DNA of 64,000 nucleotides. Origin: Escherichia phage YX22. The stretch is taken from the sequence record OR776998; one strand, written 5' to 3'. Shown here one piece after another: positions 11,934 to 60,568 of the stretch. Numbering within the stretch: position 1 is the stretch's first letter; every line of letters begins with the position of its first letter. Position numbers and translations under genes: made by a program. The notes beneath the pieces were generated by a model, which saw nothing but the letters and a program-made list of their open reading frames with translations, had not been told where the DNA came from and did no database searches.

Positions 11934-12257
11934 TTATTTGCGCAGGGCAACCACGAGTTCAGCGAGTTCACCCATGGTCGGGTCATCACCTTTACTACCC
12001 AGCCAACCGTCGTCGATTTCGACCTGAAACTCTTCTTCTAGTTCCATTACGATTTCGATGGCATCCAGTTCGTCACCGCCGAGGTCTTTCTTGGTACGGA
12101 GGCCAGCCAGCTTGTCCAGGGCGTCCTCGTTCTGAGATGCCACGTCGTCCAGCAATTTGCGCTTGTCATCGTCACGCCACAGATCCAAGTTCAGATTGTC
12201 AGTGGCGTACTGAGCCAGATGACGCATGACTTCAACATATGTTGGTTTGCTGCTCAT
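11934..12257 (-). CDS. Acyl carrier protein-like protein with Ser-to-Glu substitution at the phosphopantetheine attachment site
   Basis: 107 aa; C-terminal 55 aa align with E. coli AcpP helix II: phage DLGGDELDAIEIVMELEEEFQVEIDD versus AcpP [26 protein letters not shown]. Codon checked by hand: gac gaa ctg gat = D E L D. SD GGGAGAAG 6 nt upstream of ATG. Confidence 0.65.
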   Translation of the reverse strand: MSSKPTYVEVMRHLAQYATDNLNLDLWRDDDKRKLLDDVASQNEDALDKLAGLRTKKDLGGDELDAIEIVMELEEEFQVEIDDGWLGSKGDDPTMGELAELVVALRK

Positions 12258-12299: not shown

Positions 12300-14501
12300 T
12301 TATATTTTGATTTCTTTCTCTGTCAGTTCGGCAGTGACCTTGTACTTCACCCCATCCACTTCAACTTCCATGGTGGACTCTTCCAGGTCGAGGTCGGTGA
12401 ACCAGCCATGGCCAGCAACGATACCATACACCACTTTAGACAGTGTCTTGTTCAGGGCGCGGACTTCGGTGATGGCCGCCTTGGCAGCAGCGTCGATCCA
12501 GTTTTCGATCAGATGTTTCTGTAAGGATTCAGGCACGGCAGTGATCATAGGAGACTTCACGAATGCTTCGTACTCCTTCAGCGCATTGGCGATGAACAAG
12601 TCACCAGCATTGAGTTTCTTGTTCTCGGCAATCTTCTTCTGTACCGCTGCGATAGACGGTAGAGATGAAGCGCCAGCGATCTTCACGTTCAGCTCACGGC
12701 TCATGTAGAAGTCGGTAGACTCTTTGGTCTCAGTCTTCGGTGAGAAGCCGTAATCGCGGATGCCGTAGGAGGACAGGAACTCGGCCGCCTCAGCGCCGTA
12801 CTGTACTGCCAAGCCTTTGGCGTTACCCTTACCAACCAGGGCGTCTCGATAGAACTTCAGCACCTTCTGCTTGCCTTTCAGGGCTTCCAGACGGACATTA
12901 TCCGCAAAGAACTGAGCAGCACTGATGTTCTTGACCATGGCGCGGTTGACCAGCGGTACGCTTTCCAGGTTCAGGACAAACACTTCCGGACCACCAAACA
13001 CGTGGACACCCATTTCGATCAGCTTATGCACGACTTCGATATCAGCCTTGAACGGCAGAGTCTTCACGTTAATGATACCGTCTTTGACGATGGTGTAGTT
13101 GCGCCACTGGAAAGTATCCAGTTCTTCAGGCAGACCGAACTTCTTCTGTGCGAATTCAGGCACAGCCACAGTACCGTGTTGAATTGTACGCACACTGATG
13201 TTCGGGCGCTCGGAGTTATAGACCAAATCGCTGATTGGCACAACACCCAGGTCGTTGGTAGGTTCGAACGTCGGGTTCCACTCTTCGTGTTCTGCCAGCT
13301 TGAGAGCCAGTGCTTTACGCTCTTCTTTGGACTGAGCGTTCGCGATCTGTTCTGCCAGCTTGTCTTCGGTGTCGTCGGTTTTCTGCACAGTACCGCGCCC
13401 GATGCTCTTATAGGAGAACATCGGATGCTTGGTAGCAACAGGCACACCAGCTTCAGCCAGGTACGTCAGCACATCAACGACGGTGGTCGCATCTTCAGCC
13501 GGAACCAGGTCATAGTCAATACCGTCAACGCCGCGCAGCTGGTCGTCAACAATCGCCTGAACCAGATCGTTCTTGATGTTGGAGTAGTCCTGCTTGGTGA
13601 AGCAGTTGCTGTACTGTTTGATGAAGCGAACGTCGCCCGTTTTCTTCAGTGCAGCCCACACCAGGTCCGCGTCCATGATGTGTACGCCGTAGAACGCCAG
13701 CACGTATGCCGCCTGGATGTCCGCCAGCGCATCAAGCTGGTCGATCATGTTAGGGTTTACAACCCACAGCTTGGTGACGCTCTCAGGGATGCTCACATAG
13801 CCGACCGGGTGAGAGTCATCGTCCTGCACCGCCAGTACTGTTGCCACACCGTTTTCGACGTAGATGGCATGGGTGTAGATGACTGGGACATCAACTTTCA
13901 CCTTCGGCACTGATGACTTCAGCACGTTTTCCAGTTCGGTCTGGTATTCGGTCTGACCTTCAGCAAACACGTGGGTCGCACCGGAGCGCTCAGACATCAG
14001 AGCTAGCAGTTCGCGGTTACAGTACCAGCCATATTCGATAAATGTAATGTTATCGAAAGCAAATGGCAGGGTCTCAGCAACCAGTAGAATTTCGTTGGTA
14101 CGCCAGCAGTTGTCATACCCGTCAGTCATGAACGCCAGGTTGTTGACATAGCCAGGTTTCTTCAGGTCACGCGCAGTATCCATCGCCAGTTTCAATGGCT
14201 CAACGAAACCAGTACAGCCGGATGGTTGCAGGAAACGGTCGATCAGTTTGTTCAGCTCGCTCAGGTCAGACGCAGCACTAACCTGGCGGCCAGCGAACAC
14301 AGTACCAAAGTCGCCTTTGGAGGAGAAATACAGAACGCTCACAGTGTCTTCCGGCTTCACCAGGGATGGCAGGTTCTCCTTCAGGTGCTTGCGGACTTCA
14401 GGGAGCGCACGGTACATAGAGCCGGAAATGTCTACAACGATTACATGGTTGGACGGAGCAGCAGTCGCAACCGCATTCTTAAATTCTAATGATTCAATCA
14501 T
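12300..14501 (-). CDS. von Willebrand factor A (vWA/MIDAS) domain protein, 733 aa
   Basis: ATG at 14501 (MIESLEFKNAV...); N-terminal vWA signature VIVVDISGSM (DxSxS MIDAS), G/T-containing loop, FMTDGYDN; roughly 500 aa C-terminal region of unknown fold. Confidence 0.7.
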   Translation of the reverse strand: MIESLEFKNAVATAAPSNHVIVVDISGSMYRALPEVRKHLKENLPSLVKPEDTVSVLYFSSKGDFGTVFAGRQVSAASDLSELNKLIDRFLQPSGCTGFVEPLKLAMDTARDLKKPGYVNNLAFMTDGYDNCWRTNEILLVAETLPFAFDNITFIEYGWYCNRELLALMSERSGATHVFAEGQTEYQTELENVLKSSVPKVKVDVPVIYTHAIYVENGVATVLAVQDDDSHPVGYVSIPESVTKLWVVNPNMIDQLDALADIQAAYVLAFYGVHIMDADLVWAALKKTGDVRFIKQYSNCFTKQDYSNIKNDLVQAIVDDQLRGVDGIDYDLVPAEDATTVVDVLTYLAEAGVPVATKHPMFSYKSIGRGTVQKTDDTEDKLAEQIANAQSKEERKALALKLAEHEEWNPTFEPTNDLGVVPISDLVYNSERPNISVRTIQHGTVAVPEFAQKKFGLPEELDTFQWRNYTIVKDGIINVKTLPFKADIEVVHKLIEMGVHVFGGPEVFVLNLESVPLVNRAMVKNISAAQFFADNVRLEALKGKQKVLKFYRDALVGKGNAKGLAVQYGAEAAEFLSSYGIRDYGFSPKTETKESTDFYMSRELNVKIAGASSLPSIAAVQKKIAENKKLNAGDLFIANALKEYEAFVKSPMITAVPESLQKHLIENWIDAAAKAAITEVRALNKTLSKVVYGIVAGHGWFTDLDLEESTMEVEVDGVKYKVTAELTEKEIKI

Positions 14502-14709
14502 TGTTCTCTTCGCCTTGTGCGTAAGGGTTAAGTTCAGACTCATCAGCGGCTTCGATGCGCGTCTTTACAGAGTCCAGCATATTGTTGATAAACTCACGAG
14601 ACTGCTCCAGCTGAGCCAAGAGCACATCCTTTGGAGCATAGTTCTGAATGCAAGCCGGAATACTTTCAGACGTCGCCTTCAGGTCGGTAAAACATTCTTT
14701 CAGTATCAT
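14494..14709 (-). CDS. Hypothetical small acidic protein
   Basis: 71 aa ORF with ATG start; first gene of the three-gene cassette; its stop lies 2 nt before the vWA start. Confidence 0.4.
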   Translation of the reverse strand: MILKECFTDLKATSESIPACIQNYAPKDVLLAQLEQSREFINNMLDSVKTRIEAADESELNPYAQGEENND

Positions 14710-14774
14710 TTGATCTCACTTAACAGAGACGACGCCCTGTTGGGATTTAAAGCGGTCTTCACAGACATCAGGTT

Positions 14775-14802
14775 TCCCTCAAAACAGGGGAGTCTCCTCC
14801 CC
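14775..14802 (-). terminator. Hairpin terminator immediately downstream of the NAMPT-like gene
   Basis: On the minus strand: GGGGAG-GAGA-CTCCCC stem-loop followed by TGTTTTGAGG; separates the NAD operon from the vWA/ACP-like cassette. Confidence 0.55.
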
Positions 14803-14810
14803 TTCGGTTA

Positions 14811-16475
14811 TCAGATTTGTGAGGCCAGTTCTGTCACCAGAGGAGCGGCACGAACACGCGCATCTTCCAGAGTTTGGGTGTTGAAGAACTCGCCATCACG
14901 ATACACCAATTGGTGCTGGTTGTCGGCGTCTTGCACCTGATCAAAAGTGATACCGTCAACCAACACTAGTTTACCCTGAGGGTCTTTAATGACTTTAAGG
15001 AAACCACGCGCAGACTTTTTAGTCCCGCCTTTATCGGTCTTCGGCTCTTTGAAGATCTCACGGAATTCACCGTTCACTTTACCAGCCGTGGCTTTCACTG
15101 CTGTGCCAGTACTGTCACGGGTGTTCATCTGGTAGGTGTAGGAACCGATACCGAACACCGCGTTGATGGAAGCGAAGTTCCGGTCAGCCAGACGGCTAAA
15201 GATCTGGTCTTCACGCGCCAGGGTGATAGAATCACCGTAGATCAGGCCGATGTGCTCATCCAACAGGAAGTGCCCAGTTTCAGTCTGGGTGCCACCAAAG
15301 ATCTCCCACAGGCGCTGGATAGAGCCGACCGCTTCTGAACGGCTGATGATATTACGGTCATCTGCCATCAGAGAGTTGATCGTGCCTTCGCCTGTGATCA
15401 GGTGATAGGTGTTCGTCTCTTCGATGTGGATAACTTCGGTGCTGCTAGACACGCCGCTGATGTTCAGCGTAGCGCGGTCTTTGAACCCCTCGATGCGGTA
15501 GCCGCCGACGATGTGTACAGGGTCGCCCGAGTCAGGGCGGATCACGACTTTACCATTGCGCGCCATGATAATGTCTTTCAGGCGAGGGAGATAGTCGTCG
15601 ATGACCTGCCAGTAATCCCACGCATCAGACACGATGCTGACGATGCCATCAGGATACACGTCCTGCACCAGGCGGCGGAAGGTTTCGAATTCACCATCCT
15701 TCGTGCCCATACACATCACGGCGTGTTCGGTAGCCGCAACAGAACCAGCAACGACATAATCTTCGTCGATGTCTGCGCCATAATACTCTTCTACGAAGTC
15801 CAGGGCAGGGTTGGTATCGGTGCCTTTGAAGAACACCAGATGACCGGAACCGGAAGACGCGGCATCATGCCACCCGCTCATACCACGAAAGGAGAAGTCG
15901 TGGCCTTGGTAGTCGATGAACCAATGGTCCGGTGATACTCCCGTAGCGAGGGCAGCTTTCACCATCAGTGCCTTGTAATGCAGAGCGATGGTGGCGTTCG
16001 TCATCGGCTTCCAGATCTCAGAGCTGAACACAGTCTCCAGATAGTTGGTCAACCAGTAGAACTCCGGCAGGGTATTGAACATCACATACACCGGAACGCC
16101 ATACGGGCACATGGTGCCTTCAGGCAGCGCACGGACTTCGATAGGCAGGTAGCCGAGGTCATGCAGGGCTTCAATATGCTCTGTGCCGACGCGGCCTGGA
16201 CCCAGGACTTTGTTCATGCGACGGGCATACTTCTTCAGCACCTTGTCCTTCGGGCGCTGGAAGAATGCTTCGTCAAACAGTTCGTGGAACCAGGTCATGA
16301 AGCCCTGGATGCCCCAGACCACCACGCCGTTCTTCGGCAGGTGAGAGTTGAACAGTTTGTTAGAGCGCGGAGTTCCGTTGGAGAACACCAGCTCACTGCC
16401 TTCAGGGAACTGATAGATGTGCCCCGATTTGTAGAAGTCGATCGCATGGATTGGGTCTAAGTGGCGCATGCTCAT
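14811..16475 (-). CDS. Nicotinamide phosphoribosyltransferase family protein (NadV/NAMPT-like; candidate Namat of a NAD+ reconstitution pathway)
   Basis: 554 aa with NAMPT-like length and conserved blocks (FKGTDT, GSYTYQ, GLIYGDSIT); ATG start overlaps the stop of the Prs-like gene (ATGA). Confidence 0.8.
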   Translation of the reverse strand: MSMRHLDPIHAIDFYKSGHIYQFPEGSELVFSNGTPRSNKLFNSHLPKNGVVVWGIQGFMTWFHELFDEAFFQRPKDKVLKKYARRMNKVLGPGRVGTEHIEALHDLGYLPIEVRALPEGTMCPYGVPVYVMFNTLPEFYWLTNYLETVFSSEIWKPMTNATIALHYKALMVKAALATGVSPDHWFIDYQGHDFSFRGMSGWHDAASSGSGHLVFFKGTDTNPALDFVEEYYGADIDEDYVVAGSVAATEHAVMCMGTKDGEFETFRRLVQDVYPDGIVSIVSDAWDYWQVIDDYLPRLKDIIMARNGKVVIRPDSGDPVHIVGGYRIEGFKDRATLNISGVSSSTEVIHIEETNTYHLITGEGTINSLMADDRNIISRSEAVGSIQRLWEIFGGTQTETGHFLLDEHIGLIYGDSITLAREDQIFSRLADRNFASINAVFGIGSYTYQMNTRDSTGTAVKATAGKVNGEFREIFKEPKTDKGGTKKSARGFLKVIKDPQGKLVLVDGITFDQVQDADNQHQLVYRDGEFFNTQTLEDARVRAAPLVTELASQI

Positions 16476-17326
16476 TTTACACGTCCTGTATTTTCAGTTT
16501 TGAAAGGAAGCCCGTCGGCGGTGATGTTCTCCCACCAGACAGTGTCGGCATACACAGCATCATAGATCCCGTCGAAAACAGAGAGACCTTTGCTGAAGAT
16601 GCCATGGGTAACGAAGAGCGTCATGTGCTTAGGCTTGTGCTTCTGAAGCTCTTTGCCTAACTCAACGAACGTGCGCCCACCGTCGCAGATATCATCGACC
16701 ACCACCAGATAGCGGTCTTTGATCAGTTCAGGGTTCGTAATACTCACCCCAATGATCTCACCAGTCTTGGTGTCACGGTTCTTGTGACCGTAGACAACAG
16801 GAACACCGTCCAACGACAGACTGAGGGCTTCGGTCTTCTTAGCCGCGCCGCCGTCAGGGGCTACCAACACAGCGTTGTTCCCACGGATGAACCAGCCCAG
16901 ATACTGACGCACGATGTAATCTTGCGGGACAACATGGACGTTGTTGATCAGAGAAGACACAACATGGCTGTGAGGATCTTTGATCGCCACGCGGTCAAAG
17001 TTCATGCTATTGATGAACTCAGCCGCCCACTTCACAGACAGAGGCTCACCGAAGTCACAATGGCGGTCCTGGCGAGCATACGGGAAGTAAGGGATATACG
17101 CATGGAATGTCGTCAGACGGTCCACGTTACTCAGACCACGAACGGCGTTTACCAGAAGCGCCAGCTCAATGAAGTCGGCTGATGATTTGATGTGAGCATC
17201 AATCACCACGTTCTGAACGTGGCCGATAGGGATACCAGACTTTTGGATCTTAATATGTTCCTCACCACCTGGGAAGGTGAAGTGTTTGTAGAACACATCT
17301 TGGTCGTTCAATTTCAAACGAAACAT
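16472..17326 (-). CDS. Ribose-phosphate pyrophosphokinase (Prs) family protein (candidate Adps of a NAD+ reconstitution pathway)
   Basis: 284 aa; PRPP-binding signature LVVVDDICDGGRTF and Prs-like N-terminal half; translationally coupled to the NAMPT-like gene. Confidence 0.8.
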   Translation of the reverse strand: MFRLKLNDQDVFYKHFTFPGGEEHIKIQKSGIPIGHVQNVVIDAHIKSSADFIELALLVNAVRGLSNVDRLTTFHAYIPYFPYARQDRHCDFGEPLSVKWAAEFINSMNFDRVAIKDPHSHVVSSLINNVHVVPQDYIVRQYLGWFIRGNNAVLVAPDGGAAKKTEALSLSLDGVPVVYGHKNRDTKTGEIIGVSITNPELIKDRYLVVVDDICDGGRTFVELGKELQKHKPKHMTLFVTHGIFSKGLSVFDGIYDAVYADTVWWENITADGLPFKTENTGRVK

Positions 17327-17335
17327 AATGCAGCC

Positions 17336-17668
17336 TCATGGTGTATTGTACAGCCGTATTATACTGTGATACACAAATTGAAACGCCCAGCATTTACGCT
17401 GGACGTTATTGATATTGAAAAGGTTTTGACAAACTCGGGATTTGGAGGAAGCGCCCTTCCATGTCTGACGTTTGTAGTGGGAAGCCATGGCCATCGACCC
17501 GGCGTATTGCGTTTCACCCCTGACTACCACAGCCACAACCAGCTTATGTCGCAACAGGAAGTCCAGACCTGACTTAGACGGGATATCGCCAATGCTCAGT
17601 GGACCACGATTGTACAGGGCATACATGGTGTCAAGCGCCGCCCCGGTAAAGATAATCTCTTTAGACAT
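17336..17668 (-). CDS. Hypothetical protein
   Basis: Internal ATG at 17668 (MSKEIIFTGAALDTMYALYNRG...), 110 aa. Confidence 0.4.
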   Translation of the reverse strand: MSKEIIFTGAALDTMYALYNRGPLSIGDIPSKSGLDFLLRHKLVVAVVVRGETQYAGSMAMASHYKRQTWKGASSKSRVCQNLFNINNVQRKCWAFQFVYHSIIRLYNTP

Positions 17669-17675
17669 GGCGGTC

Positions 17676-17981
17676 TCACTTAAACGAGTCAACGATGGAT
17701 GTAAGAATTTCGGGGGTGGGTTTGGCGTCTTGTGGTTCACGGAAACCCACCTTTGCGATGCGGCCCAAGATATTGTACACTTCGCGCGGAAGGGTGTCTA
17801 CGACCGTGTCCGACATGAACGCCACGTCTTCTTGGATGGCGTTGTATTCGGCCAGTTTAGCCAGTTCTGATCCTACCAGGGACTTCAGCTTTTGCAATGG
17901 GTCGTTGCAATAGTTGAGACGGTTGCAGTTGGTGAGCGCCTGAGTTAGATTCTCAAACGCTTCTTGTATTTCCTTTGACAT
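17676..17981 (-). CDS. Hypothetical protein
   Basis: Internal ATG at 17981 (MSKEIQEAFENL...), 101 aa. Confidence 0.4.
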   Translation of the reverse strand: MSKEIQEAFENLTQALTNCNRLNYCNDPLQKLKSLVGSELAKLAEYNAIQEDVAFMSDTVVDTLPREVYNILGRIAKVGFREPQDAKPTPEILTSIVDSFK

Positions 17982-18363
17982 TGATATGTGCCTCGTATTG
18001 TTGACAGACAACAACTACTTTACGGCACATGTCGATATCGAACAAGCCAATATGACACTCTTTCTTAGTGATGCCCAGCTTATGCGCCAGCCAACTATAA
18101 GCGTCGCTCCTGCTCCTCTCTCCGCTTTTCCACAATGGGTCAAACGATCTATGGGCTTTTTGCTTCTCGGCACGGAGAGCGGCATTCGCCATCCTTCCCA
18201 GAGGCTGCCTGCCGTCGCCATGGGCATGGCAACCGACACGGGCATCACACGGGGTGCAAACCCAGAACCTCAGATTGCGGAGGTCAGGGCGATGAGGGTA
18301 GAGAACATCACCACCGACGAATTCGGCTGGGAGGCCACAGTAATCACATATAACAGGTTTCAT
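17953..18363 (-). CDS. Hypothetical zinc-finger protein
   Basis: Internal ATG at 18363 (MKPVICDYCG...WVCTPCDARVGCHAHG...): two CxxC pairs plus His; 136 aa. Confidence 0.45.
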   Translation of the reverse strand: MKPVICDYCGLPAEFVGGDVLYPHRPDLRNLRFWVCTPCDARVGCHAHGDGRQPLGRMANAALRAEKQKAHRSFDPLWKSGERSRSDAYSWLAHKLGITKKECHIGLFDIDMCRKVVVVCQQYEAHINVKGNTRSV

Positions 18364-18839: not shown

Positions 18840-20858
18840 TTAGAACACAACTTTCACAGTGCGGTTGAACGAACCGCTCACCTTCACGAACACGTGGTTG
18901 CGTTGGGTGGTAGAGAATCCCAGACCGGACAGCTGCTCAGTGCTTGGCTGTACTTTAATCTTACCACCTAACATTTCAAAAACCTTGCGGTGTTTATCAA
19001 GTTCCGGCTTCAGATATTCGTTATAGAAACCACGGGTGCCGACAGGGTTAGCACAACCTTCCAGGATGAAGAACACGTGCTTGTTGCCAGTCTGCTCGCC
19101 GTCCCAATGGTTTGGTGAGTTCAGAACCAGCTGTACCTTCTGGAAGACGGAGGTCTTGATGCCCCAGATTTCCTGAGAGCGAGCGTCGTCTTTCAGGGTA
19201 GAACGGATGTCTACCACTTGTCCAGCGCGGACATCAATCACAACAGCCAGAGTGCGATCTTTGTGCTTCAGGCCAGGATGCGAAAAACGCTTGGTCTGGC
19301 CTTTGTATTCAACTTCGATTTCGAAACCAACGTCACAGGTTTCACGCTTGTTGAAGTTAGTGACATAGAACTCGTACAGACCATCACGCAGCTTGCGTTC
19401 ATCGCTGAAGAAGATGTTCTCCACCGGGCGGCGGTTGGGATCAATGCCGTCCATACCGTTCATGTCGATATCCAGGGTTGCGCCAGTTGCCGAACGACGG
19501 TTGTGATAATACACGTGGTTGTGAAGAGGATCGTTCAGGCTCAGATCCAGATCGTCGTTGTTATGCCAAGCCAGTGACACACGGAGGAAGCTGTCGACAT
19601 TGCCGCCTGCGGTCTTCACGCGCTCTTTGATGGAGTCGGCCACTTCGCCATTGTACGACCAGCTGAAGCCGTTGTTCCACTTGAACAGGTTAGGAGCGCC
19701 TGCGGTGGCCGGAGCGATCAGGGACATCAGGTTGCCAATGTGAGAGTTTTCGACCAGCACTTCCAGGGAATGCGCCTTTGGCAACACGTTGGTCAGGAAG
19801 TCGTCGATCGTGATCTCTTCAACCTTGTCCAGGGACTTGGTCGGAGTCTTCACTTCAGACGCCAGCTGAGCAAACGGGTCCATCTTCTTCTGAGCTGCTA
19901 GGTCGGCGAACAGAACGTTGTTGATGGTCAGATCGTCATACACGGCATAACGGCGACCCAGTGAATCAGTCAGACCCAGCGCTTCGACTTCTTTCTGCGC
20001 GTTTTCAATCATCGACTTCGTGACCAGCGCGGTTGGGCGCTTGTAGTTCGTCGGAGCGACTTTGGCTTCAAAGGACTTCACGGCGGTTTCCAGATCCCGA
20101 CCTTCATTGAGGTCTACCAGCAGAGAGCCAATCACGGTATTACGAATGCCGTGAGGGGTATGACCGTTTGCACGGTAGCCAGTGCGCCAAGCCCACAGAG
20201 CGCGTTTCTCTTCTGCAGTTTGTTCGTACAGGGTCTTGTTCACCACGAACGCCTGCACTGCCGCTTTGTGCTCTTCACCGCGATACAGAGAATTCTGGTC
20301 AATCAATTCCAGAACGATTTCAGCCGATTCCAGAGACAGTTCACGCAGGCCGCGCTCAAACACTTCAATCGCCTGGCGGATTTCACCCTTCTTAGAAGCG
20401 ATGGTATCTGCCCGCAGAACATAGCTGCTCAGCAGGTCGGTGTGGAAGTGGTTGTAGGTGCGGACAATACCGTCTTTCATTTCGTGATTCGACCCAACAC
20501 CAACTTTCTTGGTGTCGTTGAAGTACACATCGACGATTGCGTGCTGCTTAACATATGCTGACAGCGCCGCAGCGACAACGTCGTATTCGTTACCCAGCTG
20601 AATGTTATCCCAGATAGAGATCACGTTCAGGTCGGAGTCGATGGTGACCACACCGCCGATATTACGGATGAATTGTTTACAGCAGGTACAGTCGTGCTCG
20701 GTACGCTCACGATAAAGCGGGTTAGTGCCAGCAGGGAAAGAAGACAGATACAGATCCCACAGAGCATCTTTATCGATGTTGGTCATGAACAGACCAGTTG
20801 CTGACATGGCCAGCACATTGTTGTTAACAGCTACTGCGAAGGGCTTAAATTCTGACAT
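18840..20858 (-). CDS. Hypothetical large protein (672 aa), function unassigned
   Basis: Long minus-strand ORF with ATG start and protein-like composition; the matching plus-strand ORFs look like antisense artefacts. No motif assigned with confidence. Confidence 0.6.
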   Translation of the reverse strand: MSEFKPFAVAVNNNVLAMSATGLFMTNIDKDALWDLYLSSFPAGTNPLYRERTEHDCTCCKQFIRNIGGVVTIDSDLNVISIWDNIQLGNEYDVVAAALSAYVKQHAIVDVYFNDTKKVGVGSNHEMKDGIVRTYNHFHTDLLSSYVLRADTIASKKGEIRQAIEVFERGLRELSLESAEIVLELIDQNSLYRGEEHKAAVQAFVVNKTLYEQTAEEKRALWAWRTGYRANGHTPHGIRNTVIGSLLVDLNEGRDLETAVKSFEAKVAPTNYKRPTALVTKSMIENAQKEVEALGLTDSLGRRYAVYDDLTINNVLFADLAAQKKMDPFAQLASEVKTPTKSLDKVEEITIDDFLTNVLPKAHSLEVLVENSHIGNLMSLIAPATAGAPNLFKWNNGFSWSYNGEVADSIKERVKTAGGNVDSFLRVSLAWHNNDDLDLSLNDPLHNHVYYHNRRSATGATLDIDMNGMDGIDPNRRPVENIFFSDERKLRDGLYEFYVTNFNKRETCDVGFEIEVEYKGQTKRFSHPGLKHKDRTLAVVIDVRAGQVVDIRSTLKDDARSQEIWGIKTSVFQKVQLVLNSPNHWDGEQTGNKHVFFILEGCANPVGTRGFYNEYLKPELDKHRKVFEMLGGKIKVQPSTEQLSGLGFSTTQRNHVFVKVSGSFNRTVKVVF

Positions 20859-20973: not shown

Positions 20974-22194
20974 TTATTCAGGTTTCTTCAAACGGTCCAG
21001 CAAATTGACGGAACCACGTTTGAGCACGACTTCATCACAGCGCTTTTTGTATTCCCCACCGCCGTCATATCCAACCTTCCCGCGCGGTTTTTTACCTTTC
21101 TGTATGGCCTCTACACAACGGGTGTACTTGCTCAGTTCACAGAACATGTTCTCCAGCTGCATAACGTTCATGCACTGATCTACAGGCTCTTCGGCCGACC
21201 AGAATTTCTCGCGAACATACCCATATTGGGAGTACACTGCGTCCTGGTTGTCCCGTAGCCAGAAGATGCATTCTTCGTGGGTCATGCCATCTTTGTCCTG
21301 GAACATCAGATCAATCCCTGCGCGACAGCCTGGTCCAGCAACCGTGAAGTGGTTCTCACTGAAAGGATATCCAGGAATGTACGTGAAATCAACCCAGATC
21401 TGGTAGGCCAGGAATGGACCAAGCCCTTCGATGTCGTCATACATGCGCTGGTATACTTCCAGAGGAGTACCAAGGCGCAGCAAGTCATGGAAATAGTTTG
21501 GATACTTGTTGGCGAATGCCTTCAGGGAACGGATAACACGCATTGGCATGTACGGCTCCCAGCCTTCTATGGTGTAGAAGTCCGGCTCTGCTTCAGCAAT
21601 AGCCTTGGCTTCCTTATAATCCATGTTCTGGGTCGAACCGTCCTTACAGATCAGGTTCACCATCATCCCACCGAAGCGCTGCTCTTTGTGGTTGACAACC
21701 AACTCAGGGAAAGCCAGGCATTGCTTCAGACCACCTGTGTTGAAGGCATTGGTGAATACTTTACCGCCGTCGGCCTCGAACTTCTGAAGTCGTTCGCGGG
21801 TTGCGTCAAGGTTGATCTTGGCGAATTCTTTGATCGTCATCGCGCCGCCGATAGCCTGAATTGGATCCCAGAGGTTGAACATGCGAAACATCACGCAGTT
21901 GAACATCTTGTCGGCCATACCCAGAGCATCGTTGTTGACGATGTTGTTGATCAGGTTGAGAGACTGCCTGTCGTGCTCTCTCCGGACGTTACAGAACTTG
22001 ACCTGCCGTAATATGGAATTATCAGTCCAAGGAGCAGGAAGGCGCTGGACGTCCTTCTTGACGTGGATCTGATAACGATCGCGCATCCATTCGTAAGACA
22101 GGCAGGTATGGGTCGGACTGAGAACCGGTTTGGCCGACTTTATCTTTTCTTCACGGACACCGCAGTACGGGACGTCTAGGGCTTTATCTTTCAT
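20974..22194 (-). CDS. Hypothetical protein (406 aa), function unassigned
   Basis: Long ORF with ATG start; no confident motif; possibly a nucleotide or DNA-modification enzyme (speculative). Confidence 0.55.
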   Translation of the reverse strand: MKDKALDVPYCGVREEKIKSAKPVLSPTHTCLSYEWMRDRYQIHVKKDVQRLPAPWTDNSILRQVKFCNVRREHDRQSLNLINNIVNNDALGMADKMFNCVMFRMFNLWDPIQAIGGAMTIKEFAKINLDATRERLQKFEADGGKVFTNAFNTGGLKQCLAFPELVVNHKEQRFGGMMVNLICKDGSTQNMDYKEAKAIAEAEPDFYTIEGWEPYMPMRVIRSLKAFANKYPNYFHDLLRLGTPLEVYQRMYDDIEGLGPFLAYQIWVDFTYIPGYPFSENHFTVAGPGCRAGIDLMFQDKDGMTHEECIFWLRDNQDAVYSQYGYVREKFWSAEEPVDQCMNVMQLENMFCELSKYTRCVEAIQKGKKPRGKVGYDGGGEYKKRCDEVVLKRGSVNLLDRLKKPE

Positions 22195-22262
22195 GGTATC
22201 CTCTTAAAATACGAAAACAGAGGCCATTATAGCCTCTGTTGTTTAGTGAACAACTGTATATC

Positions 22263-24072: not shown

Positions 24073-25062
24073 TCACTTCCACTTGATGTTGAGCATGACA
24101 TTGGTCAGGAAAAACACAGCATGCAGCCAGACATCGCCGACTTGACGGTGTTCAATCTGAGACTGACCACATACGCATACTAGATCAGGGATAGACTCAT
24201 TCTGAACCAACATTTGCTTCTCTTTATCCTGTGGTACACAGAACTGGAAGAAGCGGGAATAGAAGTCTTCAGTGATATAGTTCTGGTTGTCGGTCACCCA
24301 CTGCTTCATCCCAGCCCAGTCATTATCCTTCAACATATTCACCAACATGCCCATATCGGCCGATTTTAACACAGCCAGTGCACGTTCGTCGATCTTGCCG
24401 TAAGTGGTGACGTTATCCTGTAGAACACCCATGATGCGGCGGTTATCAGGGAAATGGCGCTTGACAATAGCAGCCAACACAGGAGGGTCATACTCAACAC
24501 CTTCGCAGCGAAGGATTTCAGCACAGCGGCGCATGAACTGAAGTTTGACCTCATCAGCCTCGGTCTCATTCCAGATAAAGTCGATTTCACGGCAACGAGA
24601 GCGCAGAGGTTCGTTCACACGTTGCTTGGCGTTGGTGGTCAAGATGAATGAACAGTTCTTGGAGACCTTCTCCACAATACCCTTCAGCGACTCCTGTGCC
24701 GCCATAGACAGACGCTCTACTTCGTCGAGGATAACGACTTTGCGGCCACCGAATACGCTCACACCAGTAGAGTACTGAATCACGCGGTCACGGATAACGT
24801 CGATGCTGTTGTCCAGGGATGCGTTGATCATCAGTGGTTGCTTACAACCGATTTCATTACACACGGCCAGGGCGGAGGTAGTCTTGCCAGTACCAGGCTG
24901 AGGGGAGTAGAACAGCATAGACGGGATGTTGCCGTTGCCGCTGGTGATGTAGCCATGGATTTTAGCGCGGACGTCTTGAGGGATGATAATCTCGTCCAGG
25001 TTGTCAGGGCGGAAACGGTTCTCCCAGGCGTACTGGTCTTTTACAATCGTGATATTAGACAT
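24073..25062 (-). CDS. 44: Clamp-loader large subunit gp44 (AAA+ ATPase)
   Basis: 329 aa; Walker A SPQPGTGKTTSALAV; Walker B ILDEVE; its ATG overlaps the stop of the upstream homing endonuclease gene by 1 nt. Confidence 0.9.
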   Translation of the reverse strand: MSNITIVKDQYAWENRFRPDNLDEIIIPQDVRAKIHGYITSGNGNIPSMLFYSPQPGTGKTTSALAVCNEIGCKQPLMINASLDNSIDVIRDRVIQYSTGVSVFGGRKVVILDEVERLSMAAQESLKGIVEKVSKNCSFILTTNAKQRVNEPLRSRCREIDFIWNETEADEVKLQFMRRCAEILRCEGVEYDPPVLAAIVKRHFPDNRRIMGVLQDNVTTYGKIDERALAVLKSADMGMLVNMLKDNDWAGMKQWVTDNQNYITEDFYSRFFQFCVPQDKEKQMLVQNESIPDLVCVCGQSQIEHRQVGDVWLHAVFFLTNVMLNIKWK

Positions 25063-25718
25063 TATGTATTTCCATGATATAGTTTACAGAACAGAACCCA
25101 AGCGTCGTCATCATACGGGTTCCAGCCCTCTTTGAATTTGTTTAACATACTCGTTGCGGTGTTCTCTTTGATAGAGAACAAACGGGCAATTCTATGGCAC
25201 CCATCACCAGTAGAAACCCAGTGATCATACACTACCCCAGCCTTTAACCACATCGGTCTGGTGTTGTGTAGCAGCGCAGCCCCGGTGTCCCAGGGTTTTA
25301 TTCCTGCGGCGGGGTGGCTTTTACCAGTTCTTCCGTGCATGGGATGAAGATTCCCAGACTTACCCTTCAACCAACTCGAGACACCAACTCGGTGATGTTT
25401 GGGTCCCGCTGACCTACCGTTGGCGATACCACAACCCAGTGGCTGAAATGATTTGTTTAAACATTTTGGGTGATCAATGTTCTCACTAATCAACTGCTGC
25501 TCTCTCCAATATGCTTCTTCTGGGGAGTCAAACAGTTCTACGAATTCTACATCAAAGAAATCAGAACCTTTCTTAGATATGATTTCCTTGACTGTTTGTG
25601 AAGAAGTGAAATATGAAGTGAACAATTGTAAAGGATGTGCACCCAATTTCGTTCTAGAACCAAAATAGAAAGAACCATCCTTCCCTAACAAATGATATAC
25701 AAACGGTTGGTTCCTCAT
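25062..25718 (-). CDS. GIY-YIG family homing endonuclease (Seg-like), free-standing between genes 45 and 44
   Basis: ATG at 25718 preceded by GAGG (5-nt spacer); N-terminal PFVYHLLGKDGSFYFGSRT (GIY...YIG module); C-terminal basic G/K/H-rich repeats resembling NUMOD-like DNA-binding motifs; T4 has rpbA at this position. Confidence 0.65.
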   Translation of the reverse strand: MRNQPFVYHLLGKDGSFYFGSRTKLGAHPLQLFTSYFTSSQTVKEIISKKGSDFFDVEFVELFDSPEEAYWREQQLISENIDHPKCLNKSFQPLGCGIANGRSAGPKHHRVGVSSWLKGKSGNLHPMHGRTGKSHPAAGIKPWDTGAALLHNTRPMWLKAGVVYDHWVSTGDGCHRIARLFSIKENTATSMLNKFKEGWNPYDDDAWVLFCKLYHGNT

Positions 25719-25751
25719 TTCAGCCTCGTGTAGAAGAATCATTTCAAATAG

Positions 25752-25770
25752 GCGGGGAACGCCCCCGCCC
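25752..25770 (-). terminator. Hairpin between gene 45 and the homing endonuclease gene
   Basis: Stem GGCGGGG/CCCCGCC with 5-nt loop, followed on the minus strand by TATTTGAAATG; a TGcTATAAT-like -10 sequence sits just upstream on the minus strand (about 25775-25786). Confidence 0.5.
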
Positions 25771-25799
25771 ACACATTATAGCATCAGGCTGGAGATTGA

Positions 25800-55539: not shown

Positions 55540-55569
55540 CAACCCCATAGAAGTGGGGTTGTTTTTAAG
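55540..55569. terminator. Bidirectional terminator hairpin
   Basis: CAACCCCA-tagaag-TGGGGTTG followed by TTTTT on plus, with a T-run on minus as well; sits between the small plus ORF and the end of the 55580-57493 tailspike gene. Confidence 0.65.
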
Positions 55570-55579
55570 TGATTATTAC

Positions 55580-57493: not shown

Positions 57494-57550
57494 AACAACC
57501 TCTTTGTTTTTCTAGTAAACCACCCCTTATGGGGGTGGGGGAGTAGTTGA

Positions 57551-60530: not shown

Positions 60531-60568
60531 GTAAAAACTAACCCCGCCGAAGCGGGGTTTTGTTTATT
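60531..60568. terminator. Bidirectional terminator hairpin (ACCCCGC-cgaa-GCGGGGT)
   Basis: Followed by TTTTGTTTATT on plus and preceded by a T-run on minus; the same stem sequence occurs at 35913-35930. Confidence 0.7.

What the first reader, a model, noticed from the sequence alone, without database searches (positions are those of the whole stretch)
14811..17326. Overlapping Prs-like and NAMPT-like gene pair: NAD+ salvage or reconstitution operon
A ribose-phosphate pyrophosphokinase homologue (PRPP-binding loop VVVDDICDGGRTF) and a nicotinamide phosphoribosyltransferase homologue are translationally coupled (ATGA overlap at 16472-16475) and end at a hairpin terminator. Such pairs can supply PRPP for nicotinamide salvage, or act as the ADP-ribose pyrophosphate synthetase plus nicotinamide ADPR transferase pair recently described in phages as rebuilding NAD+ from ADPR and nicotinamide to counter NAD+-depleting immunity (Thoeris, DSR, SIR2 systems). 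No NMNAT gene is visible in this window.
Basis: partly seen in the sequence, partly recalled or inferred. Interest (0 to 1): 0.7.

Follow-up and report, generated by a model that had tools for sequence, protein, structure and literature searches.

The report
Phage NARP1 NAD+ rebuilding operon
These two overlapping phage genes are a standard copy of NARP1, a published two-enzyme pathway that rebuilds NAD+ from ADP-ribose and nicotinamide after bacterial defences destroy it, so the finding is real but already known.

Summary
On the minus strand, a 284-aa Prs-like gene (16472-17326) and a 554-aa NAMPT-like gene (14811-16475) overlap by ATGA, and a GC-rich hairpin follows them.

The window comes from an Ackermannviridae (Agtrevirus-like) phage, about 98% identical to Escherichia phages AV101 and LHE287.

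- **Prs-like protein.** It scores below every NCBIfam Prs cutoff, but 183 bits against a profile of four validated Adps, where E. coli Prs scores 88. It has the Bas63 Adps loop DDICDGGRTF, the catalytic Lys, and no Prs C-terminal module.
- **NAMPT-like protein.** Its closest solved structure is SpβL1 Namat. It carries the Namat clamp motif (GSYTYQMNTRD), which Adps-less phage Nampts lack.
- **No NMNAT** was found in the nearest complete genome.
- **Prior listing.** Orthologues about 95% identical in DNA (phage SKML-39) are already listed as an Adps homologue with a neighbouring Namat, and as "Adps-associated" Namat, in Osterman et al.'s tables.

Nothing here is enzymology. No experiment on an Ackermannviridae copy was found.

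Minor variants are Met in place of one clamp aromatic, a 58-aa inserted subdomain shared with Bas63-type Namats, and no Macro or RyR accessory gene.

Verdict: already known, low interest.

The parts
16472..17326 (-). adps: ADP-ribose pyrophosphate synthetase (Prs-like), 284 aa
   Evidence: ORF. Pfam Pribosyltran and Pribosyltran_N. Below all NCBIfam Prs cutoffs. Scores 183 bits against a profile of validated Adps, versus 88 bits for E. coli Prs. The SKML-39 orthologue is listed in Osterman Table S1 with a Namat neighbour.
14811..16475 (-). namat: nicotinamide ADP-ribose transferase (NAMPT-like), 554 aa
   Evidence: ORF. Best PDB sequence hit is SpβL1 Namat 9W5X/9W5W at 1e-134, versus 1.6e-50 for human NAMPT. 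The AF2 model (pLDDT 93.7) has SpβL1 Namat as its best structural match. The SKML-39 orthologue is listed as 'Adps-associated'.
16472..16475 (-). ATGA stop/start overlap between adps and namat (translational coupling)
   Evidence: The same 4-nt overlap is annotated in AV101, SKML-39 and Croc_ER14. Felixounavirus, FADO and ICP1 have 37-180 nt spacers instead.
16484..16487 (-). AGGA Shine-Dalgarno-like element 8 nt upstream of the namat ATG, inside the 3' end of adps
   Evidence: Read directly from the sequence. Its function is inferred.
17334..17337 (-). GAGG Shine-Dalgarno-like element 7 nt upstream of the adps ATG
   Evidence: Read directly from the sequence. Conserved as GAGG or GGGG in relatives. 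Its function is inferred.
17356..17384 (-). Conserved upstream block GTTTCAATTTGTGTATCACAGTATAATAC containing a perfect TATAAT; a candidate promoter
   Evidence: Nearly invariant between the window, SKML-39 and Croc_ER14 while the flanking sequence diverges. The sigma-70 scan did not call it because there is no good -35 element. Its function is inferred.
17387..17402 (-). Hairpin CCAGC-GTAAAT-GCTGG followed by a T-rich stretch, upstream of the candidate promoter; probably the terminator of the preceding gene
   Evidence: Croc_ER14 has a different GC-rich hairpin (CCCCGC...GCGGGG) at the same position.
14786..14803 (-). Hairpin AGGGGAG-GAGA-CUCCCCU, then GUUUUG, starting 8 nt after the namat stop; a probable weak intrinsic terminator
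   Evidence: Fold (52-nt stretch, dG -17.3 kcal/mol, z -2.2). Identical in AV101 and SKML-39. Replaced by a canonical terminator in Croc_ER14. Not called by the scan.
16667..16696 (-). Adps PP loop DDICDGGRTF (residues 211-220)
   Evidence: Identical to the Bas63 Adps loop and present in 102 of 120 closest homologues. E. coli Prs has DDMIDTGGTL.
16781..16783 (-). Adps catalytic Lys182
   Evidence: Aligns with ICP1 Adps K185 and SpβL1 Adps K162. Both are essential by mutagenesis (PMC13586617; Osterman preprint).
15114..15146 (-). Namat selectivity-clamp helix (SCH) motif GSYTYQMNTRD (residues 444-454)
   Evidence: Fits the published Namat signature GSXΦXΦXΦTRD. All 120 closest homologues have GS[YF]TY.[YMFHC].TRD. 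Adps-less phage Nampts have GMGGGLLQ..RD.
16326..16373 (-). Namat selectivity-clamp loop (SCL) TPRSNKLFNSHLPKNG (residues 35-50)
   Evidence: Lys40 aligns with SpβL1 Arg40. The loop resembles the Felixounavirus (Bas63-type) loop TPRSDKWFNSPLAIDG, and Adps-less Nampts have ESRGGKF.
15327..15500 (-). 58-residue insertion (residues 326-383) relative to SpβL1 Namat; a small folded subdomain
   Evidence: Seen as a gap in the PDB alignment. Present and longer in the Felixounavirus Namat, absent in FADO and ICP1. Insert length is bimodal across the family. Block-mean pLDDT 82-96 with three short strands and two helices.

Best explanation
This is a core two-gene NARP1 operon (NAD+ reconstitution pathway 1) of an Ackermannviridae phage. 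The upstream enzyme, Adps, is a trimmed-down Prs-fold pyrophosphokinase. It transfers the beta-gamma pyrophosphate of ATP onto the terminal ribose of ADP-ribose, giving ADPR-PP. The downstream enzyme, Namat, is a NAMPT-fold transferase. It replaces that pyrophosphate with nicotinamide and yields NAD+ directly, so no NMN adenylyltransferase is needed. Both substrates are the products of NAD+-cleaving defences such as SIR2, TIR/Thoeris, DSR and SEFIR. The pathway therefore restores the NAD+ pool during infection and cancels that type of defence. The two genes look like one small transcription unit: a hairpin and a conserved TATAAT-containing block lie upstream, the genes are coupled by an ATGA overlap with an internal AGGA ribosome-binding site, and a hairpin follows. 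Shown here: gene structure, family placement, conserved catalytic and clamp residues, and the absence of NMNAT and accessory genes. Inferred from the published family: the chemistry and the anti-defence role. Inferred from the sequence alone: the transcription signals.
For: 1. Near-identical orthologues are already classed as NARP1. SKML-39 gene 00048 is listed as a Prs/Adps homologue with Namat within 10 genes, and gene 00049 as 'Adps-associated' Namat. The window is 95.5% identical in DNA to SKML-39 and about 98% to AV101 and LHE287.
2. Adps side. The protein scores 107 bits on TIGR01251, below the cutoff of 113, and far below every other Prs model, whereas E. coli Prs scores 423. A profile built only from Bas63, SpβL1, ICP1 and FADO Adps scores the window protein 183 bits and E. 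coli Prs 88. ICP1 Adps residues F18, R87, H121, D161, K185 and D212-D216 are conserved. The PP loop DDICDGGRTF is identical to Bas63. The protein is 284 aa and lacks the Prs C-terminal alpha11-alpha12 module, which PMC13586617 calls a defining Adps signature.
3. Namat side. phmmer gives 453 bits to SpβL1 Namat, 354 to H. ducreyi NadV and 175 to human NAMPT. Foldseek ranks the structures in the same order. Twenty of the 24 mapped catalytic, NAD+-contact and clamp-motif positions of SpβL1 Namat are identical, and the four changes are K40, S416, Y446 and M450. Both the SCH and SCL clamp elements are of the Adps-associated type, not the KVP40/KP27 type.
4. Control on the motif. Two bacterial homologues that carry the motif also sit next to short Prs-like genes.
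5. No NMNAT. None is annotated in AV101, and none appeared in a Pfam scan of its 52 hypothetical proteins of 140-490 aa. Osterman et al. found no phage with both NARP1 and NARP2.
6. The pair with its 4-nt overlap is conserved as a module in several Ackermannviridae while the flanking genes vary.
Against: No enzymology or genetics exists for this pair or for any Ackermannviridae copy; my literature search found none. One of the two SCH aromatic residues that contact adenine in SpβL1 (Tyr396) is Met450 here. The SCL stacking position is Lys40-Leu41 rather than Arg or an aromatic, so the preference for ADPR-PP could be weaker than in SpβL1. Published Namats retain NMN-forming activity with PRPP in vitro, so some ordinary salvage cannot be excluded. 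ICP1 Adps F92 and F223 are Cys90 and Glu222 here, although Bas63 also differs at these positions. The TIGR01251 score is only 6 bits below its cutoff. The NMNAT scan covered only hypothetical proteins of 140-490 aa and showed only the 25 best families.
Confidence: 0.86

Rival explanations
1. This is canonical salvage. The first enzyme is a true PRPP synthetase and the second a true nicotinamide phosphoribosyltransferase (NadV). Together they make NMN, which host NadR or PncC/NadD/NadE convert to NAD+, as a general metabolic boost.
For: GenBank and PHROG annotations call them ribose-phosphate pyrophosphokinase and nicotinamide phosphoribosyltransferase. The second protein passes the NCBIfam NadV-type model NF006629, with 469 bits against a cutoff of 405. 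Namats can make NMN from PRPP in vitro. The E. coli host has its own NMNAT activities (established knowledge).
Against: The first protein fails every Prs model cutoff and matches the Adps profile far better than E. coli Prs does. SpβL1 Adps gave no PRPP-synthetase product in vitro. The second protein has the adenine-clamp motif that is absent from Adps-less phage Nampts, and it is closest to a solved Namat. NF006629 also accepts the KVP40-like Nampt, so it does not discriminate between the two types. In Osterman's phage set, 94% of phages with a KVP40-type Nampt also encode an Nmnat, and none was found here.
Confidence: 0.05
2. This is NARP1 chemistry with relaxed donor specificity. Because the clamp has Met450 and Lys40-Leu41, this Namat may use both ADPR-PP and PRPP at meaningful rates. 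The operon would then serve both as a counter-defence and as constitutive NAD+ or NMN supply for the phage's own needs.
For: Substitutions sit at two adenine-contacting clamp positions. SpβL1 clamp double mutants lose NAD+ synthesis but keep NMN synthesis. The Met variant is fixed in the window's closest relatives and occurs in 13 of 120 homologues.
Against: Single clamp mutations in SpβL1 reduce activity only 1.3-1.7-fold. The other adenine-stacking aromatic (Tyr446) and the TRD motif are intact. Lys-Leu at the SCL is common in the family, seen in 17 of the sequences tabulated. The obligatory Adps partner is retained and translationally coupled.
Confidence: 0.08
3. The pair is a decaying or non-functional remnant.
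For: The type Agtrevirus, Shigella phage Ag3, carries a single chimeric ORF made of Adps residues 1-222 fused to Namat residues 227-554. That ORF would lack essential parts of both enzymes.
Against: Both window ORFs are full length, with all mapped catalytic residues intact. They are 96-99% identical to protein clusters with more than 110 member sequences. The Namat model is confidently folded.
Confidence: 0.01

Closest known systems
NARP1 of Escherichia phage Bas63 (Felixounavirus; genes 79-80), validated by deletion in Osterman et al. 2024
   Same: Same gene order, adps then namat. Identical Adps PP loop DDICDGGRTF. The Bas63 Adps shows the same substitutions relative to ICP1 at the F92 and F223 positions. 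A Felixounavirus Namat used as the Bas63-type stand-in has a Lys-type SCL followed by F, and a large insertion at the same site after RPDSGDP.
   Different: Only about 36% (Adps) and about 46% (Namat) identical. The Felixounavirus pair has a 45-nt spacer, not an ATGA overlap. Its SCH has Tyr where the window has Met450, and its SCL has Trp where the window has Leu41. The insertion is shorter here.
NARP1 of Bacillus phage SpβL1 (Adps and Namat assayed in vitro; Namat crystal structures 9W5X/9W5W)
   Same: Best solved-structure match (1e-134; TM 0.95 over the target). Twenty of the 24 mapped catalytic, NAD+-contact and clamp-motif positions are identical. The catalytic Lys of Adps aligns.
   Different: SpβL1 Adps has DDLSSFGGTF instead of DDICDGGRTF and is only about 32% identical over a partial alignment. 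SpβL1 Namat lacks the 58-aa insertion and has Arg40 and Tyr396 where the window has Lys40 and Met450.
Vibrio phage ICP1 Adps (structures and kinetics, PMC13586617)
   Same: 35% identical over the full length. Acceptor-groove residues and the catalytic beta-hairpin Lys are conserved. The C-terminal alpha11-alpha12 module is likewise missing.
   Different: The ICP1 PP loop is CDGAAS where the window has CDGGRT. ICP1 F92 and F223 are Cys90 and Glu222 here. The ICP1 genes are 180 nt apart.
NARP2 (KVP40 NadV/Nampt plus NatV/Nmnat) and other Adps-less phage Nampts (KP27, Aeromonas L9-6)
   Same: Same NAMPT fold and catalytic core, including the His, the RPDSG motif and the nicotinamide pocket. Same overall purpose of restoring NAD+.
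   Different: These enzymes have GMGGGLLQ..RD and ESRGGKF in place of the adenine clamp. They are 26-32% identical to the window Namat, have no adjacent Adps, and need an Nmnat. The window has the clamp and an Adps, and no Nmnat was found.
Haemophilus ducreyi NadV (9KE8/9KEO), a cellular Nampt
   Same: It is the second-closest solved structure (36% identity). Its SCH-equivalent segment is the same length.
   Different: Its motif is GAQTYQRNTRD, with Gln and Arg at the two adenine-stacking positions, where the window has Tyr and Met. From memory, not tested here: it is reported as a stand-alone gene.
Bacterial NrtR / Prs-like / NadV-like operons ('bacterial NARP1', PMC12774641)
   Same: About 50% identical Namat homologues with the same SCH motif, next to or one gene away from short Prs-like genes.
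   Different: They are chromosomal, lie next to an NrtR-type regulator gene, and are accompanied by an ADP-ribosylglycohydrolase or a KptA-like gene. The gene order varies and there is no overlap.

Membership tests
Adps (NARP1 enzyme 1) | Falls in the phage Adps clade, separate from cellular Prs | tested here: met
   Scores 183 bits on a profile of four validated Adps, versus 88 for E. coli Prs. Below all NCBIfam Prs cutoffs. The top 120 database homologues are all 249-316 aa proteins, many on phage-sized contigs. The SKML-39 orthologue is in Osterman Table S1. I did not build a full tree with many cellular Prs sequences.
Adps (NARP1 enzyme 1) | A Namat homologue in the immediate vicinity (97% of the clade) | tested here: met
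   The Namat gene overlaps the Adps gene by 4 nt.
Adps (NARP1 enzyme 1) | Catalytic beta-hairpin Lys (ICP1 K185, SpβL1 K162) and acceptor-groove residues R87, H121, D161, D212, D213, D216 | tested here: met
   The window has K182, R85, H119, D158, D211, D212 and D215 at these positions.
Adps (NARP1 enzyme 1) | Conserved remodelled PP loop, and loss of the Prs C-terminal alpha11-alpha12 module | tested here: met
   DDICDGGRTF is identical to Bas63 and present in 102 of 120 homologues. The protein ends about 25-30 residues before the E. coli Prs C-terminus.
Adps (NARP1 enzyme 1) | Makes ADPR-PP from ADPR and ATP, and does not make PRPP | not testable with these tools
   This needs purified protein and LC-MS.
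Namat (NARP1 enzyme 2) | [quoted passage not shown] | tested here: inconclusive
   The window has GSYTYQMNTRD. The length, GS, TRD and Tyr at positions 3 and 5 fit. Position 7 is Met rather than an aromatic, as in 13 of 120 homologues.
Namat (NARP1 enzyme 2) | SCL loop with Arg, Lys or Tyr at the third position, supplying a stacking residue | tested here: inconclusive
   Lys40 is at the third position, which fits. The next residue, expected to do the stacking in Lys-type loops, is Leu41 and not aromatic, and Phe42 follows. Lys-Leu is common in the family.
Namat (NARP1 enzyme 2) | Conserved NAMPT-type catalytic core (SpβL1 D13, Y15, F189, R192, D215, catalytic His, R306, D308) | tested here: met
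   The window has D13, Y15, F194, R197, D220, H251, R313 and D315.
Namat (NARP1 enzyme 2) | Closer to validated Namats than to Nampts, and associated with Adps | tested here: met
   453 bits to SpβL1 Namat versus 175 to human NAMPT. 46-49% identity to Adps-associated Namats, including that of the deletion-validated FADO operon, versus 32% to a KVP40-like Nampt. Foldseek gives the same ranking. The SKML-39 orthologue is labelled 'Adps-associated'.
Namat (NARP1 enzyme 2) | Prefers ADPR-PP over PRPP and forms NAD+ directly | not testable with these tools
   This needs a mixed-substrate assay.
Class I PRPP synthetase (Prs) | Passes curated Prs family models and has the C-terminal regulatory and filament module | tested here: not met
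   TIGR01251 gives 107 bits against a cutoff of 113. Other Prs models give 50-93 bits against cutoffs of 296-536. The C-terminal module is absent.
NARP2 (Nampt + Nmnat) | A KVP40-type Nampt without the adenine clamp, plus an Nmnat in the same genome | tested here: not met
   The clamp is present. No CTP_transf_like or NMNAT family appeared among AV101 hypothetical proteins, and none is annotated.
NARP1-AP / RyDEP-extended NARP1 | A Macro-domain phosphatase (Adpp) or an RyR-domain glycosidase within about two genes of the operon | tested here: not met
   Pfam and PHROG scans of four genes on each side found none. The hits were DUF3268, VWA and an ACP-like protein. hmmscan is less sensitive than the HHpred search used in the paper.
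NARP3 (PnuC + NadR) | A PnuC-like transporter plus a NadR-like bifunctional enzyme | tested here: not met
   Neither window protein has these folds.

The most novel reading that the evidence does not exclude
The Ackermannviridae version may be a functionally distinct NARP1 variant. The non-aromatic clamp residues (Met450, Leu41) could change donor selectivity, for example towards real dual use of ADPR-PP and PRPP or use of another ADPR derivative. The 58-residue inserted subdomain, together with strict translational coupling, could mediate a physical Adps-Namat complex that channels the labile ADPR-PP. [quoted passage not shown]
Probability: 0.08. Interest if true: 0.4.

Novelty: already known. 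Interest (0 to 1): 0.14.

Why it matters
NARP1 lets phages survive the many bacterial defences that act by destroying NAD+, including Thoeris, DSR1/2, SIR2-HerA, SEFIR and Kongming. Recognising it in an Ackermannviridae phage matters in practice. It predicts that these broad-host-range phages of E. coli, Salmonella, Shigella and Klebsiella, which are often considered for therapy and biocontrol, resist NAD+-depleting defences. Because the operon has no Adpp phosphatase, it also predicts that they remain sensitive to aRES-type defences. The finding also shows that the GenBank labels 'ribose-phosphate pyrophosphokinase' and 'nicotinamide phosphoribosyltransferase' on these genes are functionally misleading. 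It adds no new biology beyond the published pathway.

Tried and rejected
- **Promoter and terminator scan.** The consensus scan over 14400-18100 called neither the hairpin after namat nor any promoter upstream of adps, and its counts were at chance level. I relied on folding and cross-phage comparison instead.
- **NCBIfam on the second protein.** Model NF006629 accepts both the window protein and a KVP40-like Nampt, so it cannot separate Namat from Nampt.
- **Literature search for experiments.** A search for work on Ackermannviridae NARP1 returned one unrelated paper. A search for PDB codes 9KE8/9KEO returned nothing relevant. Foldseek later identified that entry as H. ducreyi NadV.
- **AV101 annotation as evidence against an NMNAT.** It is too sparse, mostly 'hypothetical protein', so I added a Pfam scan of 52 hypothetical proteins. 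That output lists only 25 of 37 matched families, so weak hits with E above about 5e-4 were not seen.
- **First neighbour scan.** It failed because one coordinate was off by one, and I repeated it.
- **Full phylogeny.** I did not build a tree with many cellular Prs or Nampt sequences, because only E. coli Prs was available as a sequence. I used reciprocal profile scores and Osterman's published tree instead.
- **NARP3, NARP1-AP and RyDEP-extended operons.** Considered and rejected.
Full report
**Observation.** The window carries two minus-strand ORFs at exactly the reported coordinates. One is a 284-aa protein (16472..17326) and the other a 554-aa protein (14811..16475). The plus-strand 'tcat' at 16472-16475 reads ATGA on the minus strand, so the first gene's stop overlaps the second gene's start. 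The quoted loop VVVDDICDGGRTF is present. Pfam gives Pribosyltran and Pribosyltran_N for the first protein and NAPRTase (1.3e-31) for the second. PHROGs gives 'ribose-phosphate pyrophosphokinase' (1e-90) and 'nicotinamide phosphoribosyl transferase' (1e-193). The genes are real and the homologies are far beyond chance.

**Source.** The 2.7-kb region is 98.3-98.4% identical to Escherichia phages LHE287 and AV101 and about 95% identical to Shigella and Salmonella Agtrevirus phages such as SKML-39. Eighty-nine phage records match, from Klebsiella, Salmonella, Dickeya and Shigella hosts among others, and the relatives whose taxonomy I read are Ackermannviridae. The whole window is collinear with AV101 positions 82,328-146,376.

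**What is already known.** Osterman et al. (bioRxiv 10.1101/2024.02.11.579819) described NARP1. Adps is a Prs homologue that pyrophosphorylates ADP-ribose to ADPR-PP. Namat is a NAMPT homologue that joins ADPR-PP to nicotinamide and gives NAD+ directly. Purified SpβL1 Adps gave no PRPP-synthetase product. SpβL1 Namat made only NAD+ when offered PRPP and ADPR-PP together. They found NARP1 in 859 phages. Ninety-seven percent of Adps-clade genes have a Namat neighbour, and no phage has both NARP1 and the Nampt+Nmnat pathway NARP2. Their supplementary tables list SKML-39 gene 00048 among the Prs/Adps homologues with 'Namat within 10 genes: Yes'. They list gene 00049 as 'Adps-associated' Namat. P46FS4 and Klebsiella phage 0507-KN2-1, whose listed sequences closely match the window protein, appear in the same Prs/Adps table. 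The family assignment of this pair is therefore already in the literature at the bioinformatic level. I found no experiment on an Ackermannviridae copy.

**Independent test, Adps.**
- Against NCBIfam, the first protein fails every Prs model. TIGR01251 gives 107 bits against a cutoff of 113, and the others give 50-93 bits against cutoffs of 296-536. E. coli Prs scores 423-533 bits on the models it passes.
- A profile built only from the four experimentally supported Adps proteins (Bas63, SpβL1, ICP1, FADO) contains no close relative of the window protein. It scores the window protein 183 bits and E. coli Prs 88 bits.
- I used the structure-based residue list for ICP1 Adps from PMC13586617. The window protein conserves F18, R85, H119, D158, the catalytic hairpin Lys182 (equivalent to ICP1 K185 and SpβL1 K162), and D211, D212, I213, C214 and D215.
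- Its PP loop DDICDGGRTF is identical to that of Bas63 Adps and occurs in 102 of its 120 closest database homologues. E. coli Prs has DDMIDTGGTL.
- It lacks the C-terminal alpha11-alpha12 module, which that paper calls a defining signature of the Adps family.
- ICP1 F92 and F223 are Cys90 and Glu222 here, but Bas63 has Met and Glu at those positions.

**Independent test, Namat.**
- The closest solved structures by sequence are SpβL1 Namat 9W5X/9W5W (1e-134, 453 bits), then H. ducreyi NadV (354 bits), then human NAMPT (175 bits).
- An AlphaFold2 model built from 71 sequences has mean pLDDT 93.7. Foldseek ranks the same three groups in the same order, with TM 0.95 and 41% identity to Namat.
- I mapped the NAD+-contact list from PMC12774641. 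Twenty of the 24 mapped catalytic, NAD+-contact and clamp-motif positions are identical. The four changes are R40 to K40, A362 to S416, F392 to Y446 and Y396 to M450.
- The published Namat-specific signature GSXΦXΦXΦTRD reads GSYTYQMNTRD here.
- All 120 closest homologues have GS[YF]TY.[YMFHC].TRD, and position 7 is Met in 13 of them.
- Adps-less phage Nampts (a KVP40-like Vibrio phage, KP27 and Aeromonas L9-6) instead have GMGGGLLQ..RD, and ESRGGKF in place of the clamp loop. Every Adps-associated protein I aligned has the Namat-type helix motif or a recognisable variant of it, and those whose N-terminus was available also have the Namat-type loop. Xanthomonas Nampt has GMGGALLQKVDRD, and H. 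ducreyi NadV has GAQTYQRNTRD, without the stacking aromatics.
- As a control on the motif, two chromosomal bacterial homologues that carry it (Fibrella and Chitinophaga) also lie in operons with a short Prs-like gene, next to an NrtR-type regulator gene. PMC12774641 reports such bacterial NARP1 modules.

**Where this copy departs from the prototype.**
- One of the two SCH aromatics that contact adenine is Met450. The clamp-loop residue expected to stack in Lys-type loops is Leu41. Lys-Leu is common in the family, and the combination of Lys-Leu with Met is confined to the window's near relatives.
- Single clamp mutations cost only 1.3-1.7-fold activity in SpβL1. I therefore treat this as a minor variant and score the two clamp features as inconclusive rather than met.
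- A 58-residue insertion (residues 326-383) follows the RPDSGDP strand. It is absent from the SpβL1, FADO and ICP1 Namats and present, and longer, in the Felixounavirus (Bas63-type) Namat. Insert length is bimodal across the family. The model predicts a small folded subdomain.

**Accessory and alternative pathways.**
- No NMNAT is annotated in AV101.
- A Pfam scan of its 52 hypothetical proteins of 140-490 aa showed no cytidylyltransferase or NMNAT family among the 25 best of 37 matched families.
- The only sizeable window-specific segments are a 654-bp insertion, whose ORF looks by eye like a GIY-YIG homing endonuclease, and divergent tailspike regions.
- Four genes on each side of the pair have no Macro domain (the Adpp of NARP1-AP) and no RyR domain (RyDEP).
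- NARP3 is PnuC plus NadR and does not apply.
- This is therefore the core two-gene NARP1. By inference from the aRES paper, that predicts sensitivity to aRES, which makes ADPR-1''-phosphate.

**Operon anatomy.**
- The 4-nt overlap is kept in AV101, SKML-39 and the more distant Klebsiella phage Croc_ER14. Validated or annotated NARP1 operons elsewhere have 37-180-nt spacers.
- An AGGA lies 8 nt before the namat ATG, and a GAGG lies 7 nt before the adps ATG.
- Upstream there is a hairpin followed by the block GTTTCAATTTGTGTATCACAGTATAATAC. The block is nearly invariant in three phages whose flanking sequence diverges. Croc_ER14 has a different GC hairpin at the same place.
- Downstream, the hairpin at 14786-14803 is identical in the close relatives. 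In Croc_ER14 an unrelated canonical terminator replaces it.
- These observations suggest a self-contained transcription unit. That is an inference, because the consensus scans did not call either element.

**Verdict.** The first interpretation, ordinary PRPP and NMN salvage, is disfavoured though not biochemically excluded. The system is already known, and near-identical orthologues are already catalogued as NARP1. The differences from the prototype are small, so interest is low.

Noticed in passing
window 17336-17668 (-): The small gene just upstream of adps (PHROG 15102, unknown function) ends with TGA in AV101. The window has CGA at that codon, so the ORF reads on for 33 more codons through the hairpin and promoter-like region and stops 9 nt before the adps ATG. 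The family profile ends at residue 77, so the extension looks like a stop-codon loss or a sequencing difference.
   Followed up: partly
protein P0129 (Shigella phage Ag3); equivalent to window 14811-17326: The type Agtrevirus Ag3 is annotated with a single 547-aa chimeric ORF made of Adps residues 1-222 joined to Namat residues 227-554. The junction falls at a shared 'FVE' tripeptide, which implies a deletion of roughly 870 bp, or an assembly error, that would inactivate both enzymes. PHROG 12872 (547 positions) appears to be built on this chimera, which explains why both window proteins hit it.
   Followed up: partly
window 25062-25772 (-): A 654-bp segment that is absent from AV101 lies between the clamp-loader and sliding-clamp genes. 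It carries a 236-aa ORF whose N-terminus looks by eye like a GIY-YIG homing endonuclease. I did not run it against any family library.
   Followed up: no
window 12300-14501 (-) and 11934-12257 (-): Downstream of the operon, after a 71-aa gene, lie a 733-aa protein with an N-terminal von Willebrand factor A domain (PHROG 2426, unknown function) and a 107-aa acyl-carrier-protein-like gene (PP-binding; PHROG 4154).
   Followed up: no
window 17953-18363 (-) and 18840-20858 (-): Upstream neighbours are a DUF3268 zinc-finger protein (6.9e-38) and a conserved 672-aa protein with no Pfam match (PHROG 1735).
   Followed up: no
about window 21000-22200 (-); AV101 105024-106223: A 399-aa protein with the 5-hmdU DNA kinase helical domain. 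Other AV101 hypothetical proteins hit the HMUD2, HMUDK_HMUD1 and amino-acid:DNA transferase families, which points to a thymidine hypermodification pathway.
   Followed up: no
AV101 genome, location not determined (not among the ten proteins scanned near the operon): Among AV101 hypothetical proteins there are hits to ART-PolyVal (an ADP-ribosyltransferase, 2.7e-10), DUF3990 and a YAcAr SLOG-family domain (1.3e-10). These are possibly further NAD+- or ADPR-related functions in the same phage.
   Followed up: partly
L012 (Fibrella aestuarina) and L013 (Chitinophaga caseinilytica): Bacterial homologues with the Namat clamp motif lie in a gene cluster that starts with an NrtR-type regulator and includes a short Prs-like gene. 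An ADP-ribosylglycohydrolase and DUF4291 accompany it in Fibrella, and a KptA/Tpt1-like RNA 2'-phosphotransferase in Chitinophaga. This looks like chromosomal NARP1-like modules embedded in ADPR metabolism.
   Followed up: partly
window 55565-59512 and 60562-63126: These segments have no megablast match to AV101 and lie in the tailspike and tail-fibre region, the expected host-range variable cassette of Ackermannviridae. Conversely, AV101 103815-105088 is missing from the window between positions 20981 and 21062.
   Followed up: no
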